Origin: Candidatus Pampinifervens sinense | GTDB taxonomy: Bacteria; Aquificota; Aquificia; Aquificales; Aquificaceae | Reading direction: 5' to 3' | DNA: 64,000 bases | NCBI GenBank assembly: GCA_037927135.1 | Contig: JAXSPP010000001.1 | Location: 32,001 to 96,000, forward strand | Shown: piece by piece, positions 36,001 to 42,000 of the stretch | How positions within the stretch are numbered: the first letter of the stretch is position 1 | How the letters are laid out: each line of letters opens with the position of its first letter | Program-made: the position numbers

Positions 36001-39000
36001 GTGGTGAGTACAAGCCAATACCCAAGCTCGCCCTAAGGGCTGGTTATAACTACGGAAAGTCTCCGATAAGGGGTGGAGCAAAGAATCCTACTAATGCCAA
36101 CACTATTCCAAACCTTGCAGCACCCTTTAGCGATTTTAATATAGCCTACTTCAACCTCATAGGCTTCCCAGCTATAACAGAACACCATATAACCCTTGGT
36201 TTGGGCTATGAGTTTACAAAGACTTTTAGCGTGGATGTGGCTTACAAACATGCCTTTAAAAAGACTGTAAAGGCTACGAATCAATCTGGTACATATCAAG
36301 TTGAAGCCTCCAATGCCCAAAACGCCATATCCATAGGCCTCAACTGGAAGTTCTAAAAAACTCCTTGGGGAGGCTCTTCCTCCCCTCCTTAAAAGGTGAT
36401 AAGCCTCATACAAAATTCCAAAGGCTTCTGGTAGAATACTCTCAAAACTTTTAAGGAGGTAATCAATGGAGTTTAGGCATGTCTTTATATGCGTTAATCA
36501 AAGGCCTCCGGGCCATCCCATGGGTTCCTGTGCAGAAAAGGGAAGCAGAGAGCTATACCAAGCCTTTATGGAAAAGGTCCAGATGGACCCAGAGCTTTTT
36601 ATGAGCACCCTTATAACACCTACGGGCTGTCTTGGTCCCTGTGGGTTGGGTCCCACCATAGTGGTCTACCCAGATGCCGTGTGGTATGGCAATGTAAAGC
36701 CCTCCGATGTGGAGGAGATAGTGCAAAGCCACCTCAAGGGTGGAAAGCCAGTAGAAAGGCTGGTGGTTTCAAAAGGGAAGCCACCGGGTATGTTTTAAAA
36801 GGTTGGGGGCTATACAGCCCCTGGCACTCCTTCTTCTTCAAACTCTATTTCCATCCTTTCTGCGGGTATTATAGTGGTTATGGCATGCTTATAAACAAGG
36901 GTTTGTTGACGGCCATCTTCCATAAGTATAGTGTATAGGTCAAAAGACCTTATCCTTCCTTGAAGCCTAACACCGTTGATAAGATAAATGGTTACCTTTA
37001 CCCTTCTTTTCCTTGCTGTGTTCAAAAAGGCCTCCTGCAACTTGTATGCCATCTTTTAGCTCCTCCTTTCCAAAAATTCCATAGTTGTCTGGTAAAGTTT
37101 TTCTGCTAAAGAAATATAATACTGGGAATTTTCCAAATTTTCAAGAAGTTCTAAAGGGAAAACCCATAGGCCACCGTAGGCACCTACAAAGGACCCCAGA
37201 AGGTATCCTATGGCGTCCGTGTCTCCACCCACCATACCACAGGCATTAACACCTCTCCAAAAAGCTTCTAAAGGATCTTCTATATACCTTAAGAAAAGGA
37301 AGATTGACAAAGGTAGAGCTTCAAAGACAAAGGTGGAGTTTCCTATTTCCCTTATGGCTTCTTCTTCATCTGCACCAGAATCCAAAAGTTTTGCCACCTT
37401 ATCAAGATAAACCTTGTTTTTATCATGCTTTATAAAGGTCTTTAGGTTTTCAATGAGTGCCAGCCTATCCCTTAAATCTCTCAAGTCAAAGCTCTCAAGG
37501 ACCAAAAAAGAAATAAGGGCAGAGACTACAGCGCTTGCATCATAAATCTCCTTGCTCCTGTGGGTTATAAGGCTTACAAGCCTTCCAGCCTCCGCAGAGA
37601 GGTAAGGATTATAGTAGTGGAAAAGGCCTGTGATGGTGCAACGAAGCACACCCTCCACAGAGTAGGAGACTAGGCCAGCTTCATCAAGGCCCACACCTGA
37701 AGAAAGAAGGTCTATGGCCGTTATAAGGGTTGGGTCAGGATACCGATGGATCTCTTCCCTGTCTGCCCATGCTTTTAGCTTGGCAAAAAAGTGATAAGGG
37801 TCAAGGCTCTTTCTCTCCACTATGCTTTCTGCAAGCAGTATGCTTATGGTAGTCTCATCCGTAGTTTGCTCTGGTTCCAAGCCTACCGATGGACTGTGAG
37901 GATGAGGTTCCACAAAGCCCCTTATAGCCCCACCATAAAAGCTTACCACTTCCTCAAAAGGCACATCTTCAAGGCTTTTACCAATAGCATCTCCAAGAGC
38001 ACCACCTAAAAGGGTTCCTTTAAACTTTTCAAGGACTATATCCATGATTTTTAATATACTTCAAGCTCCACCGGTTTATATTCTCTTAGATTTCTCATAA
38101 GACTGCTGAAGGATCTTTTGTCCACCTTTATAAGGAGCTCCCAAAGGCCTTCCACTTTTCTCCTTTTTACCTCAATGGGTAGGTTTCTCAATTTGGGAAA
38201 GGCCTTAAGCTTTACTTTAACAAGCCTCTTGAAAGGAGGAAGATCCTCCACCTTTCTCCTTTCCAGCTCCTCATTGCAAAAACCTTTCCAGTCTTTGCCC
38301 TTTATATATCCCAGTATAGGATGATCCTCTAGTACTGTTTGTATTATGAGCCTTTTTTTGCTTATGCAGAGGGCTTGCCACATGTAGGAAAAGTACCTTT
38401 CCAAAGAATCAAACCAAGGCACTGAAAGTATGTTATCTCCATGAAGGACCAAAACATTATCGTAAACTCTTCCAAGCCTTGGCACAGTATCAAAATGGAA
38501 GTTTTCCCTTTGTCCAAAGAGTTTAAAAACTTCCTCCATAGCCTTTTCTATACCAAATCCAAGTTCATCCAGCTGTCTACCACACTCTGGACAATGGGCA
38601 GGAGCCTTATATCCACAAGAGGTGCAAAAAACCGTATCCTTGCTCTTGCTCAGTGTTAAAAAGCTTTTACACTTGGGACACTCCACTATCCAACCGCAAT
38701 AATTACAAAAGGCGTAGGCATACCCACCCTTATTCACAAGGAAGAGCCACTCTTCTTGACTGTTTTTTATGAGCTCTTTTGCCTGAGGAGAAAGGATCTC
38801 TTGAGCCTTCCTTCTGAAGATAAAAACATCCGCTTGAGGTGTGTGATAATGCTTTTCCCAATCGTCCCTTAGGCAAAGGGCAAGAGGTATATGGGTGCTG
38901 ACAAAGAGGAAGTTGGCCCCATAATACCTGGAAAGTGTATACAGGAAGAGCCTTGTGTCAAAGCCATTCCACCAGGCTTTTGTAAAACCTTCATCAAAAT

Positions 39001-42000
39001 AAACTAATAGGCTTAGGGTTTTCAGTGGAGCAAGAAGGGCTATCTTTGTTCCCAAAAGCACTATACCTTCCTCAGAAGAGACAGAGAACCACTTTTTGAT
39101 AAAGTCCTTGGGCTTGTCTTGAGACTTGAGGAGAATTAGCCTATCCTTTAAGAGTGGATAAAGGTGTTGGTAAAGCACGGAAAGAAGGGAAAGACTGGGG
39201 CAGAAGATAAAGGCATTCTTCCTTTCCTGAACAAGCCTTTCAAGTTCGGAGCTAATATGACCTATAATCCCCTCCCAACTGCCAAAGATTACAGACCTTT
39301 CTCCCAAGGGCTTCAAATACTCCATTTTGATCTGCCTTAAAGTAGGAACCTCTCTTATCTCTTGGATTATCTCCTCCCTTTCCCCGACTATACCCTTTTG
39401 GACAAGCGCTCTTATGTCTTCACTCTTAAAGCCTGCCGATCTTAGCTCTTCCTTACTTACTACCCTATTTTCTAAAAGGTAGTATATTAACCTTTGCTTT
39501 CCCTCTTTGTTCTTAAACCGCTTTAGCTTTTGAATAGCTTCTTCCAGTGGCACAAGAAGGCTATAGTAGGTTGTAGTAAGGTTTGGCATCTTCCATTCTT
39601 TTACCCTTTTTAGAAAGCCAAGGTCCAATAGCTTTTCAACAAGTTCTTTGCCAAACTTTTCCTTTAAACTTTCTTCTTTAACAGCCCTTCGCACCTTTAC
39701 ATACTCAAGAACGTTCAGGCTCAACCTATCAACATACTTCCAATCCTTTTCCCCAAGACAGATATACTCTTCTTCCCTCCAGTCAAAGACTGAAGGCACA
39801 AGGTCAAAAAGGATCAGCCATGGAAGCTGGGCATAATGGTTGGCAACCTCTAACACAGAAAGTATATGTTTTTCGGTGGTAAAGGGCTTTTCATCTGGGA
39901 AAGATACATCTAAAACTTCTCCCTCTTCCGACAGCCCTACCACTATACCAGTCCTTCCCTTAAGAAGTACCCTGTAGCCCACAGGGCTAGTAGGATATGG
40001 GAAGTTAGCTTTTACCTTTAACGTCCTACCGCTGGGTAGGGCTACTTTTAGGCTCATTGACCGTAGTATTCGGCCTTTGATGTGGGTGTCTCCCAAAGCA
40101 CTACCTTTATAACCTTTACCTCCTCCAATAGGCCTACCTCAGATAGCTTTTCCACCAGAAAGTCATAGAAAAACTTGGCTAAGGCCTCTGCCGTTGGACA
40201 AAAGTTTACCGGAAATATCTTAAGAGCACCGTATTTTTCCGCCAAAGCCTTTAGCTCTTCATACATAGGGTCGTTTACATCTATGATGAAACTGTGGTCT
40301 ATAGCTTCTATCAAATCCTTCAAAGCGTTCTTTACATGATAAAAGTCCAAAACCATATCCTGTTCTGAAAGGGTGTTGGATCCTAGTGTAACCTCCAGAA
40401 GATAGCTGTGTCCGTGTAGGTTTATGCATTTATTTACTGGCACTTCCTTTCCGATGGTAAGCTCCGCACCCCTCCCACAGGTAAGGTTTTGCTTCCAAAC
40501 CCTGTGGCCTGCTTCAAACCTAAAGGTCTTTGTTATCTGCCACCTTGCTACCATATTACAACCCTCTCAGCCTTAACTATAAGCTCCGCTATCTCCTCAT
40601 AGCTTTTTGTAAGGTTTTCTGGTATTTTAATCCCTCTTGCTTGGGCATCTTCTCTGCATACATACCATCCTTTTCTCGTTGGAAATCGCAGAACACCATC
40701 CTGAATTAGGATGACCAAGTCATCCTCTTCTACAAGGTCAGAGTTAAAATCTCCCAACTTCCTCACAAGCCATAAGGTCTTTACCATACCATTACAGCCT
40801 CCGATTCCTTTATAATCTCCCTTATCTCTTCAAGGCTTCTTACCTCAACTCTATACCTTAGATCCTCTGGGTTTAGCCCCCTTTCTTCCAAAGAGGTATC
40901 TTCTACAAAGACCTTTACATTAACATACTCCATATTTTCCAAAAGCCTTTCAAAGCCTTCTATACCCAGCCATTCTGGATGCCATCTTGTGAGCGCATAC
41001 ACACCATCCTTTATGAATATAAGGCTTACTTCACAGCTTATTCCTAGGGCCATTGCGACCCTTAATGCCTCATGACACTTCCAAGAGAAAGGATCTCCCT
41101 TTACTATAAAGGCTATTTTCTTCATTTTAGTTAAAGTTTATCACCTTGTCATAGTCTTGTATTATCCTTGACAGGTTGTAAGTAGAACTACTCTCAAAAA
41201 ATTCAAGCGGTTTTTCTATACCCCTCTGATGGGCTGAATGGGCACAGTATAGCAACCTTGCCCCCAACTCTTTAAACCTTTTAGTTTCTGGCATTATGAT
41301 GTAATAGGCACCGTTGCCCGTGAAAAACAGTGTAACTTCTCCCCTTTTTACCAGCTCCTCTACTAGCCTTACTATAGTGTTATAATCCTTTGCAAAAGGA
41401 TTGCTCGTTATTATAAATAGAAACCTCATCTTACCTTCCTTATTAGGATCTCCCAGGTGTTTTCTCCTATTTGATTGACAGCCAACACCTCTTGACCCTC
41501 TTCCTTCATGCTTTTGGGAACACTTTCTGCAGAGGGCTTATAGTCTACTATCACCCTTAGGACCTGGCCTATTTCCATCTGTTCAAGGGCAAGCTTACTT
41601 TTAACAAAGGTGAAAGGACACACATCACCTCTTATATCTAACTCCTTGTCGTAGCTTACCCCTTCCATGGATCCATTAAATTATAAAACATCCACATCAT
41701 TTTGCAAGGACCCTTTCTACCTCAGCCAAAGAAGTGATCCCCTTTCTAACCTTCAATATACCAGCTTCATATAGCGTTCTCATGCCCTTTTTACGGGCAA
41801 GGTCTCTTATATCCTCGGCAGTAGCACCCTTCACTATAAGCTTCCTTATCTCCTCATCTACCTCCAATATTTCATGCACCGCAGTCCTACCTTTGTAACC
41901 CGATCCGTTGCAAAACTCACAACCTTTAGGGTTTGCCCTGTATATGACTATGTCCTCATCTGGGCTGTTAAGAACGCCCAACCTATATAGAACTTCTCTT

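What a model noticed while it worked through the whole genome (the two positions that open the first line are those of the whole stretch)
38051..40057. PriA homologue without Walker A or DExH
The replication-restart protein PriA is present but so divergent that Pfam misses it. It has lost the ATP-binding P-loop and the DExH box while keeping the zinc-binding region. The same holds across Aquificales sampled, so PriA here is probably not a helicase.
Evidence so far: PDB PriA 6dcr, 4nl4, 6dgd at 6e-18. No P-loop at the site in 13 of 13 homologues, DExH in 1 of 13. Evolves faster than its flanks. Found in 22 of 25 genomes at 1e-8.
(Added by a program. Inside this text positions count along the whole contig: contig position 32,001 is position 1 of the stretch shown here. 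"Call 12" and the like, gene names such as g00115 and contig names such as C1 are that model's own, and its searches are not shown. The text may have been shortened before it was handed on; [...] marks where a part breaks off. The agent that wrote the report below was given it as the finding of a first reader that could run no searches.)

Follow-up and report, generated by a model that had tools for sequence, protein, structure and literature searches.

The report
PriA that has lost its helicase engine
This hot-spring bacterium and its whole order keep the replication-restart protein PriA under selection, but with the ATP-burning helicase site erased, so PriA here most likely works as a DNA-fork-binding scaffold and not as a motor.

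Summary
Window 38051-40057 (minus strand) encodes a 668-aa protein that is the genome's only PriA-like gene. Its predicted fold (pLDDT 90) matches solved PriA end to end.

A residue-level alignment to E. coli PriA shows:
- Walker A replaced (K230→I264, T231→I265)
- DEEH→FDEG
- motif V deleted
- the GRAGR arginines gone
- the eight zinc-binding cysteines and the C-terminal domain kept.

The same holds in 59 of 59 PriAs from four Aquificales-side families (0/59 P-loop, 0/59 strict DExH). The sister family f4 keeps the motifs in 25 of 25.

The gene is under purifying selection (dN/dS 0.08-0.18). It diverges 2-3 times faster than DnaB and faster than its upstream neighbours.

Deinococcus radiodurans PriA is a published pseudohelicase (2015), and reviews treat Deinococcus as the sole exception. 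The Aquificales form is a far more decayed variant. P-loop-less PriAs also turned up in Omnitrophota, Parcubacteria and a Nitrospirales MAG.

ATPase loss, DNA binding and DnaB recruitment are inferred, not assayed. The complex prediction could not be run.

The parts
38051..40057 (-). priA-like CDS, 668 aa plus stop (stop codon 38051-38053)
   Evidence: ORF and translation. Only PriA-like gene in the genome. PDB PriA 6e-18. Fold match to PriA over the whole length.
39758..40057 (-). N-terminal domain, residues ~1-100, in the place of PriA's 3' binding domain. Borders are approximate.
   Evidence: Model aligns to PriA chains from residue 1. G27, R29, P54, D55, P58, Y75 and P88 are conserved over the 59 degenerate PriAs. 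The published pocket residues F16, Y18, G37 and K61 are replaced in Aquificaceae.
39362..39757 (-). Winged-helix region, residues ~101-232. Borders are approximate.
   Evidence: Secondary structure of the model. Position between the N-terminal domain and lobe 1, as in PriA.
39308..39361 (-). Flexible linker, residues ~233-250
   Evidence: pLDDT below 50 for residues 235-248. Least conserved segment, 33% mean identity in the genus.
38858..39307 (-). RecA-like lobe 1, residues ~251-400, without catalytic motifs
   Evidence: Aligned to E. coli PriA 216-400. dN/dS about 0.15.
39263..39286 (-). Former Walker A site, residues 258-265 (F-G-S-W-E-G-I-I). E. coli K230 corresponds to I264 and T231 to I265.
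   Evidence: MAFFT alignment with E. coli PriA. Strand 254-259 runs straight into helix 261-277 in the model.
38987..38998 (-). Former motif II, residues 354-357 (F-D-E-G in place of D-E-E-H)
   Evidence: HMMER and MAFFT alignments.
38723..38857 (-). RecA-like lobe 2, first part, residues ~401-445. K443 stands at E. coli R427 (motif IV, ssDNA contact).
   Evidence: Basic residue at this column in 59 of 59. Role of R427 taken from PMC13594977 (passages read).
38558..38722 (-). Cysteine-rich region, residues ~446-500, four CxxC pairs (C451, C454, C460, C463, C478, C481, C489, C492)
   Evidence: Invariant or nearly invariant Cys columns. Lowest dN/dS of the protein, 0.05.
38324..38557 (-). RecA-like lobe 2, second part, residues ~501-578. 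It has the conserved G-F-G-I-E-K (E504 = E. coli E492) and D-N-I-L-S-V-P blocks. A deletion of about 28 residues sits where motif V lies in E. coli.
   Evidence: dN/dS 0.07.
38357..38377 (-). Former motif VI, residues 561-567 (Q-A-L-C-I-S-K in place of Q-V-A-G-R-A-G-R)
38054..38323 (-). C-terminal domain, residues ~579-668, with conserved E597, R601, P607 and P608 (E. coli A621, R625, P631, P632)
   Evidence: (third HMMER stretch).
40054..40554 (-). Upstream neighbour, a 6-pyruvoyl-tetrahydropterin synthase family gene. Its stop overlaps the priA start (ATGA).
   Evidence: Pfam PF01242, 114 bits. Sequence read. Syntenic in 21 of 21 genus loci.
37056..38045 (-). Downstream neighbour, an ADP-ribosylglycohydrolase family gene that starts 5 nt after the priA stop
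   Evidence: Pfam PF03747, 162 bits. Sequence read. Not found next to priA in any of 21 genus loci.

Best explanation
The gene is the orthologue of priA (primosomal protein N', the replication-restart initiator). In the order Aquificales it has become a pseudohelicase.

Shown:
- It is the only PriA-like gene in the genome.
- It keeps the whole PriA architecture: N-terminal domain, winged helix, two RecA-like lobes, a two-zinc cysteine-rich region (CRR) and the C-terminal domain.
- It lacks the residues that bind and hydrolyse ATP. Walker A is gone, DEEH reads FDEG, motif V is deleted and the motif VI arginines are gone.
- It is under purifying selection.

Inferred:
- It cannot hydrolyse ATP or unwind DNA.
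- It acts as a structure-specific platform on abandoned forks or D-loops.
- The constraint falls on the CRR, on the lobe-2 elements that in E. coli hold the CRR in its 'up' state (E492, here E504), and on a basic residue that contacts lagging-strand ssDNA (R427, here K443). This suggests the protein still clamps single-stranded lagging-strand template and exposes a docking surface for the replicative helicase system.
- No PriB-, DnaT-, PriC- or DnaD-type adaptor was found. The hand-off would therefore go directly, or through an unknown adaptor, to DnaB and its DnaC/DnaI-type loader, as proposed for D. radiodurans PriA.
- Any unwinding needed to expose ssDNA would fall to other enzymes such as RecG or the single UvrD-family helicase, or to SSB.
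For: Identity as PriA:
- PDB PriA at 6e-18.
- TIGR00595 at E 5e-33.
- Model pLDDT 90.1 and pTM 0.82.
- Foldseek's top 9 rows are all PriA chains (best 1.6e-30); the next family is at 9.5e-8.
- VIA-align Z 21.6-24.4 over model residues 1-668 against five PriA entries; the next is Mfd at 15.7, core only.
- No second PriA in a genome that is 99.96% complete.

Loss of catalytic motifs:
-. 0 of 59 have Walker A, 0 of 59 strict DExH, and R584/R587 are absent in all four degenerate families. f4 keeps them in 25 of 25.
- Single origin: f1+f2+f3+f5 form one clade with SH-aLRT 99.
- Holding them together with canonical f4 is not rejected and scores 18.4 lnL units higher (p-AU 0.785).

Still functional:
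- dN/dS is 0.076-0.176 in the 14 closest genus pairs. CRR is 0.05 and lobe 2b is 0.07.
- The start is coupled to the upstream gene.

Retained non-catalytic elements:
- 8 Cys in 55 of 59, K/R at R427 in 59 of 59, E/D at E492 in 56 of 59.
- CTD residues R625, P631 and P632.

Precedent:
- K230R alone kills ATPase and helicase activity, yet priA300 cells are near wild type (PMC5778457, section 8 read).
- D. radiodurans PriA lacks both activities but binds fork DNA and DnaB (PMC4504706, abstract and passages).

Partners in the own genome:
- DnaB.
- A 216-aa DnaC/DnaI-type loader with Walker A.
- One SSB with a ...DDEIPF tail.
- RecG above its cut-off.
- One UvrD-family helicase.
- Not found: DciA, DnaD/DnaB_2, PriC, DnaT (the controls rang).
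Against: - No activity, DNA binding, zinc content or partner binding was measured.
- The curated PriA models are not met: TIGR00595 scores 114 against 230, and nothing in Pfam passes. Membership therefore rests on fold, CRR, single-copy status and phylogeny.
- In Aquificaceae the published 3'-end pocket residues are replaced: F16→L/I in 27 of 37, Y18→V in 24 of 37, G37 gapped in 22 of 37, K61→hydrophobic. Fork recognition may therefore differ from E. coli PriA, or be lost.
- R428, H455 and D513, which also serve the CRR-up state or ssDNA binding in E. coli, are not kept in f1.
- Deep branches of the PriA tree are weak. In the free tree the degenerate clade sits with other P-loop-less proteins and not next to f4, so horizontal origin is not excluded.
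- Expression could not be tested (0 reads laid, no test).
- A weaker second nucleotide site has been proposed for E. coli PriA and cannot be assessed here.
Confidence: 0.75

Rival explanations
1. The protein has left replication restart. It keeps the PriA scaffold but has taken on another job, for example as a zinc-dependent DNA- or protein-binding adaptor in a different DNA transaction.
For: It diverges 2-3 times faster than DnaB in the same genomes. The 3'-end pocket residues are replaced in Aquificaceae. Its gene neighbours are metabolic, not replication genes.
Against: It is the only PriA homologue in the genome, and PriA is described as the one restart protein conserved across bacterial phyla. 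The most constrained parts are the ones used for primosome assembly in E. coli: the CRR, E492 and R427. D. radiodurans shows that a dead PriA can still bind forks and DnaB.
Confidence: 0.13
2. It is still an ATPase or helicase. It would use a non-canonical nucleotide site, or catalytic residues supplied in trans by a partner.
For: An acidic pair after a hydrophobic strand survives in the own protein (LLVYFDE) and in 37 of 59 sequences. A second, weaker nucleotide site has been proposed for E. coli PriA.
Against: No P-loop anywhere in the protein. Motif V is deleted and both motif VI arginines are absent. The acidic pair is not conserved even within the genus, where LGDR, FGSE and FCES occur. 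K230R alone inactivates E. coli PriA.
Confidence: 0.07
3. It is a decaying relic with no function, a gene on its way to loss.
For: It evolves fast, falls below the curated family thresholds, and is often annotated 'hypothetical protein'.
Against: dN/dS is 0.08-0.18. All 84 fetched loci gave a PriA-like ORF, and no match or 16 had an internal stop. The predicted fold is confident. The zinc ligands are invariant.
Confidence: 0.02
4. The missing motifs are an alignment or gene-call artefact, or the true PriA lies elsewhere in the genome.
For: Sequence identity to E. coli PriA is only about 20%, so single columns could be misplaced by a residue. For example, F-D-E could stand against D-E-E.
Against: HMMER, MAFFT and the structural aligners agree on the register. 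A whole-protein search for a P-loop finds none. The genome-wide search finds no other PriA. The family model's matches skip model positions 1 to about 13 in all degenerate families but not in f4.
Confidence: 0.02

Closest known systems
Deinococcus radiodurans PriA, the Deinococcus-Thermus 'pseudohelicase' (Lopper, Boone & Morrow 2015, PMC4504706; abstract and passages read)
   Same: A PriA orthologue with non-consensus Walker A and B motifs, kept by a whole lineage. It is proposed to act in restart without ATP hydrolysis by binding forks and DnaB directly.
   Different: In Deinococcus-Thermus the P-loop is still recognisable, with Lys replaced by Arg in GKT. Here the P-loop is gone altogether, motif V is deleted and the motif VI arginines are lost. 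In Aquificaceae the 3'-end pocket residues are replaced as well. The lineage is a different phylum. D. radiodurans has DciA and this genome does not; it has a DnaC/DnaI-type loader instead (with the control list). Activity was measured there and not here.
E. coli / K. pneumoniae PriA (PDB 4NL4, 6DCR, 6DGD, 8FAK)
   Same: Same six-part architecture and order of domains, four CxxC pairs, conserved CTD residues, and the E492 and R427 equivalents.
   Different: About 20% identity. No motifs I, V or VI and a decayed motif II. About 64 residues shorter. No PriB, DnaT or PriC found in the genome.
E. coli priA300 (K230R) allele
   Same: An ATPase- and helicase-dead PriA that still supports restart through a helicase-independent route (review PMC5778457).
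   Different: It is a laboratory point mutant that depends on PriB-DnaT. Here the loss is natural and extensive, and those adaptors were not found.
Canonical PriA of sister family f4 in the same class
   Same: Same phylum. A clade uniting it with the degenerate forms is not rejected.
   Different: 785-aa proteins scoring 440-535 bits on TIGR00595 from model position 1, with Walker A and motif VI present. Walker A reads GK-Met in 24 of 25 and motif II reads DEEQ in 23 of 25.

Membership tests
PriA (primosomal protein N'; TIGR00595 / PRK05580) | Domain architecture: 3'BD, winged helix, RecA lobe 1, RecA lobe 2 with inserted CRR, CTD | tested here: met
   Model pLDDT 90.1. Foldseek 4nl4 at 1.6e-30. 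VIA Z 21.6-24.4 over residues 1-668 against chain residues 2-729.
PriA (primosomal protein N'; TIGR00595 / PRK05580) | Cysteine-rich region CxxC-Xn-CxxC-Xn-CxxC-Xn-CxxC (two zinc sites) | tested here: met
   All 8 Cys present in the own protein and in 55 of 59 degenerate relatives. Zinc binding itself was not measured.
PriA (primosomal protein N'; TIGR00595 / PRK05580) | Score above the curated cut-off of the family models | tested here: not met
   TIGR00595 scores 114.4 against 230.35, and 13 further PriA models are all below their cut-offs. No Pfam family is above its cut-off.
PriA (primosomal protein N'; TIGR00595 / PRK05580) | Walker A, GxxxxGK[ST] (E. coli K230) | tested here: not met
   F-G-S-W-E-G-I-I at the site. 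No P-loop anywhere in the protein. 0 of 59 relatives have one at the site.
PriA (primosomal protein N'; TIGR00595 / PRK05580) | Motif II, DExH | tested here: not met
   F-D-E-G. Strict DExH in 0 of 59, relaxed form in 5 of 59.
PriA (primosomal protein N'; TIGR00595 / PRK05580) | Motif V and the motif VI arginines (GRAGR) | tested here: not met
   Gap of about 28 residues at motif V. C-I-S-K stands in place of G-R-A-G, and the R587 column is gapped.
PriA (primosomal protein N'; TIGR00595 / PRK05580) | 3'-end binding pocket residues (E. coli Y18, G37, K61, with F16) | tested here: not met
   The own protein has L, V, a gap and a hydrophobic residue at these columns. f3 keeps F, Y and K/R. This rests on alignment at low identity, so it is less secure than the motif I result.
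PriA (primosomal protein N'; TIGR00595 / PRK05580) | Single-copy orthologue that descends with the phylum's PriA | tested here: inconclusive
   Only PriA-like gene in the genome. The degenerate clade has support 99. A clade with f4 is not rejected, p-AU 0.785, but deep branches are weak.
PriA (primosomal protein N'; TIGR00595 / PRK05580) | DNA-dependent ATPase and 3'-5' helicase activity | not testable with these tools
   Needs purified protein.
PriA pseudohelicase (Deinococcus-Thermus type) | PriA homologue whose Walker A and B depart from the consensus across a whole lineage | tested here: met
PriA pseudohelicase (Deinococcus-Thermus type) | P-loop retained, with Lys→Arg in GKT | tested here: not met
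   No P-loop remains. The Deinococcus-Thermus state is taken from the paper's text, not from sequences aligned here.
PriA pseudohelicase (Deinococcus-Thermus type) | No ATPase or helicase activity, but binds fork DNA and DnaB | not testable with these tools
   The one complex-prediction job for PriA with DnaB could not be run.

The most novel reading that the evidence does not exclude
PriA's conserved core job may be ATP-independent: clamping the fork and gating helicase loading through the zinc-bound CRR. The helicase motor would then be an accessory that bacteria have discarded repeatedly, in Deinococcus-Thermus, Aquificales, Omnitrophota, Parcubacteria and some Nitrospirales.

In Aquificaceae even the 3'-end pocket has been rebuilt, and no known adaptor exists. 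That would imply a new mode of fork recognition and a direct hand-off from PriA to DnaB or its DnaC-type loader.
Probability: 0.3. Interest if true: 0.7.

Novelty: new variant of a known kind. Interest (0 to 1): 0.5.

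Why it matters
[quoted passage not shown] An older survey scored Aquifex aeolicus as lacking PriA altogether (PMC1193525).

This result changes both points. Aquificales do have PriA, and theirs is a second, much more radical natural experiment in removing the motor. 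Further cases appear in at least three other lineages.

The surviving constrained residues separate what PriA needs for its scaffold role (CRR zinc sites, E492, R427, CTD) from what it needs only for unwinding. The Aquificales proteins are also thermostable, which suits structural and biochemical work on helicase-independent restart.

On the practical side, annotation pipelines call this gene 'hypothetical protein' in many Aquificaceae genomes.

Tried and rejected
- Contig-coordinate reading of the finding (window 6051-8057). That stretch holds hydrogenase-type genes, not PriA, so this reading was rejected.
- Complex prediction of PriA residues 250-668 with DnaB (alignments A1 and A3). Each time the queue was full, and the last call returned no usable answer. 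No job ran, so the PriA-DnaB contact stays untested.
- Expression. No RNA holder of the stretch was listed. Three hot-spring metatranscriptome runs of a related study laid 0 reads on window 36900-41500. This is no test, because the organism is not shown to be in those runs.
- Earlier findings of this scan were not open to the session.
A 14-row Aquificaceae alignment worked.
- A 91-row tree under the mixture model did not finish in two calls. I replaced it with 70 rows of my own choosing, LG+G4 and a quick search. These rows were E. coli, 25 of the 84 locus proteins and 44 of the 150 representatives.
- SSB-tail pocket residues of PriA. The paper I opened (PMC8246471, passages only) does not list them, so that site was not scored.
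- Deinococcus-Thermus PriA sequences could not be fetched with the tools at hand. Independence from that lineage rests on the different motif state and different phylum, not on a joint tree.
- Pseudogene, artefact and hidden-second-PriA readings were considered and rejected (see rivals).
- Literature searches that found no report on PriA motifs in Aquificae or Patescibacteria. They cover open-access PMC and bioRxiv only.
- Figures are not held. I therefore cannot tell whether an Aquificae sequence was among the 100 genera in Fig. 2 of Lopper 2015. The text has 0 occurrences of 'aquif'. No supplementary files were opened.

Full report
**What is there**

The finding's numbers are window coordinates. 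On the minus strand an ORF runs 38051..40096. Its ATG at 40057 gives a 668-aa protein. That ATG overlaps the stop codon of the upstream 6-pyruvoyl-tetrahydropterin-synthase-family gene as ATGA. An ADP-ribosylglycohydrolase-family gene starts 5 nt after the stop. Read as contig coordinates, the numbers would point to hydrogenase-type genes, so that reading was dropped.

**Is it PriA?**

- Pfam gives 23 weak matches and none above its cut-off. The PriA zinc-ribbon model reaches 13.4 bits against 26.
- NCBIfam's PriA models all match but stay far below their cut-offs. TIGR00595 scores 114.4 against 230.35, E 5e-33.
- A structure predicted from a 61-row alignment is confident: mean pLDDT 90.1, pTM 0.82. 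Only residues 235-248 are disordered.
- Foldseek's first nine rows are all PriA chains, best 1.6e-30. The next family, a DEAD-box protein, comes at 9.5e-8.
- VIA-align gives Z 21.6-24.4 to five PriA entries over model residues 1-668 against chain residues 2-729. The next hit (Mfd, Z 15.7) covers the helicase core only.
- The genome is 99.96% complete and holds no other PriA-like gene. The remaining TIGR00595 hits lie in other helicases, one of which is RecG.

I therefore treat the gene as the priA orthologue. The curated family thresholds are not met.

**The missing motor**

I aligned 84 PriA-like ORFs from the phylum with E. coli K-12 PriA.

| Element (E. coli) | Own protein |
|---|---|
| Walker A, G-V-T-G-S-G-K-T | F-G-S-W-E-G-I-I (K230→I264, T231→I265) |
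| Motif II, D-E-E-H | F-D-E-G |
| Motif V | gap of about 28 residues |
| Motif VI, G-R-A-G-R | C-I-S-K plus a gap |

- The protein has no P-loop-like string anywhere.
- In the model, strand 254-259 runs straight into helix 261-277, where a canonical RecA fold has the phosphate loop.
- Across the 59 sequences of families f1 (37), f2 (7), f3 (14) and f5 (1), none has a P-loop at the site.
- None has a strict DExH. Five, all in f3, have E-[DE]-E-H.
- Decay is graded. f3 keeps an acidic motif II, motif III and remnants of motif V. f2 and f1 have lost more.
- Within Aquificaceae a bulky hydrophobic residue stands at the column of P-loop Gly227: Trp in 21 of 37, Phe in 6, Leu in 5, Tyr in 2. I infer, without proof, that it fills the former nucleotide pocket.

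**What is kept**

- All eight CRR cysteines are present in 55 of 59. One of the four exceptions is a masked stretch.
- A basic residue stands at E. coli R427 in 59 of 59, and Glu or Asp at E492 in 56 of 59.
- The G-[FY]-G-[IT]-E-[KR] block, the D-N-I-L-S-V-P block and the C-terminal-domain residues R625, P631 and P632 are also kept.
- In E. coli, R427 contacts lagging-strand ssDNA inside the PriA pore. E492 stabilises the rotated 'CRR-up' state, which encircles that strand and exposes the docking site for the next primosome protein (PMC13594977, passages read).
- Not everything of that switch survives. R428, H455 and D513 are replaced in Aquificaceae.
- Unexpectedly, the published 3'-end pocket residues (F16, Y18, G37, K61; review section read) are replaced in Aquificaceae but kept in f3. 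The N-terminal domain is nevertheless well conserved within the family.

**Distribution and history**

- The curated PriA model was run over 151 genomes of the phylum. 24 of 25 genomes of family f4 score 440-535 bits, with matches that start at model position 1. The 25th is a truncated ORF.
- None of the 73 Aquificaceae genomes searched (own genome included) reaches the cut-off. Their matches begin at about model position 11 or later, just past Walker A.
- Named records place f1 in Aquificaceae: Hydrogenobacter, Pampinifervens, Thermocrinis and Aquifex MAGs.
- In a 70-row tree (LG+G4, quick search, rows chosen by me) the degenerate PriAs form one clade with support 99. Deeper branches are weak, and the clade sits near other P-loop-less proteins and not next to f4.
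- An AU test does not reject a single clade of all the phylum's PriAs, and that tree is 18.4 lnL units better (p 0.785). I ran the test after seeing the tree, but the group was defined by taxonomy.
- The simplest reading is one decay event at the base of the Aquificales side after its split from the f4 lineage. Horizontal origin is not excluded.

**Is it alive?**

- dN/dS in the 14 closest pairs of the genus is 0.076-0.176. It is lowest in the CRR (0.05) and the second half of lobe 2 (0.07), and about 0.15 in the former motor lobe 1.
- The protein still changes quickly: 45-75% identity within the genus. The neighbouring PTPS gene shows 80-88%, DsrE 70-86% and DnaB 82-87%.
- This amounts to 1.7-3.0 times the divergence of DnaB in eight paired genomes.
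- Expression could not be tested.

**How it probably works**

- In E. coli, K230R alone abolishes ATPase, helicase and translocase activity. Yet priA300 cells are nearly normal, and the PriA-PriB route does not need the motor.
- D. radiodurans PriA, with Arg for Lys in the P-loop, neither hydrolyses ATP nor unwinds DNA. It does bind forks and DnaB.
- By analogy, and given where the constraint lies, I propose that the Aquificales protein binds abandoned forks or D-loops with a single-stranded lagging template. It would clamp that strand with the CRR and present a surface for the replicative helicase system.
- The genome has DnaB, a 216-aa DnaC/DnaI-type loader with a zinc module and an intact Walker A, and one SSB with a ...DDEIPF tail.
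- No DciA, DnaD-type, PriC or DnaT was found, with the positive controls ringing. PF00436 found no second SSB-fold gene that could be a PriB.
- The hand-off is therefore direct or uses an unknown adaptor.
- The 2026 work indicates that a duplex lagging arm must be unwound before the CRR can rotate. A dead PriA would then depend on other enzymes. RecG and one UvrD-family helicase are present, and RuvB was not found.
- All of this paragraph is inference. The one complex-prediction job never ran.

**Compared with what is known**

- The kind of thing, a PriA pseudohelicase, was described in 2015 for Deinococcus-Thermus.
- The 2017 review calls Deinococcus the exception to otherwise conserved PriA helicase activity.
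- A 2005 survey listed both D. radiodurans and A. aeolicus as lacking PriA.
- Five literature searches found no report on PriA motifs in Aquificae or Patescibacteria (open-access corpus only, figures and supplements not seen).
- The Aquificales form differs from the Deinococcus one in three ways: degree (no P-loop at all, motif V deleted, motif VI lost), the altered 3'-end pocket in Aquificaceae, and the loader context.

**A wider pattern, seen in passing**

- Among 142 cluster representatives of at least 430 aa returned for this protein, 66 have both Walker A and the motif VI arginines. 75 have neither, and one N-terminal fragment lacks only Walker A.
- Of the 76 without Walker A, 29 belong to the close Aquificales set and 47 do not. 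Some of those 47 look like f3, and some are fragments.
- Named members of four of these other clusters come from Candidatus Omnitrophota (two clusters), a Nitrospirales MAG and Candidatus Parcubacteria. All four keep the eight Cys, R427 and E492.
- Many of them still pass the TIGR00595 cut-off, with matches that start after about model position 12.
- The list is ranked by likeness to a degenerate query, so it gives no prevalence. It does show that Deinococcus is not the only exception.

**Verdict**

It is a new and more extreme variant of a known kind. It is of moderate interest to replication-restart specialists, and its main value is as a natural dissection of PriA's motor-independent role.

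Noticed in passing
L040-L063, L066 (family f4 PriA loci): The 'canonical' PriAs of sister family f4 read G-x-T-G-S-G-K-Met in 24 of 25 (Thr in one). Motif II reads D-E-E-Gln in 23 of 25. The hydroxyl residue after the P-loop lysine normally binds magnesium, so these may already be impaired enzymes.
   Followed up: partly
P0040-P0150 (representatives), e.g. P0073, P0085, P0089, P0122: PriA-like proteins of about 600-660 aa that lack Walker A and the motif VI arginines but keep the CRR, R427 and E492. Named members come from Candidatus Parcubacteria, Candidatus Omnitrophota and a Nitrospirales MAG.
   Followed up: partly
G000 whole genome: RuvB (TIGR00635) was not found in a genome that is 99.96% complete, while RecG is present and canonical. 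This matches the 2005 report that A. aeolicus lacks RuvAB.
   Followed up: partly
G015:C1:1338914-1339267 (not fetched as a locus): A relative of the same genus has a second, separate 197-aa open frame that is 43% identical to PriA residues 1-118. It looks like a stand-alone copy of the N-terminal domain.
   Followed up: no
L148 (G023), and G085:C44 and G070:C1: In three relatives DnaB lies in open frames of 901, 902 and 685 aa. In G023 the match is split into two pieces (query 3-378 and 376-465); in the other two it ends at query residue 385. This suggests an insertion such as an intein.
   Followed up: no
P0002 cluster: Public annotation of this gene is inconsistent. Of 7 named members of the closest cluster, one carries 'primosomal protein N'' and six carry 'hypothetical protein'.
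   Followed up: yes
window 37056-38045: The ADP-ribosylglycohydrolase-family gene packed 5 nt behind priA is not found next to priA in any of 21 loci of the same genus. The upstream PTPS and DsrE genes are syntenic.
   Followed up: partly
window 5543-8678: Minus-strand ORFs of 636, 233 and 170 aa look, from recall of typical sequence features only, like a [NiFe]-hydrogenase large subunit, a b-type cytochrome and a maturation protease. They were not scanned against any library.
   Followed up: no
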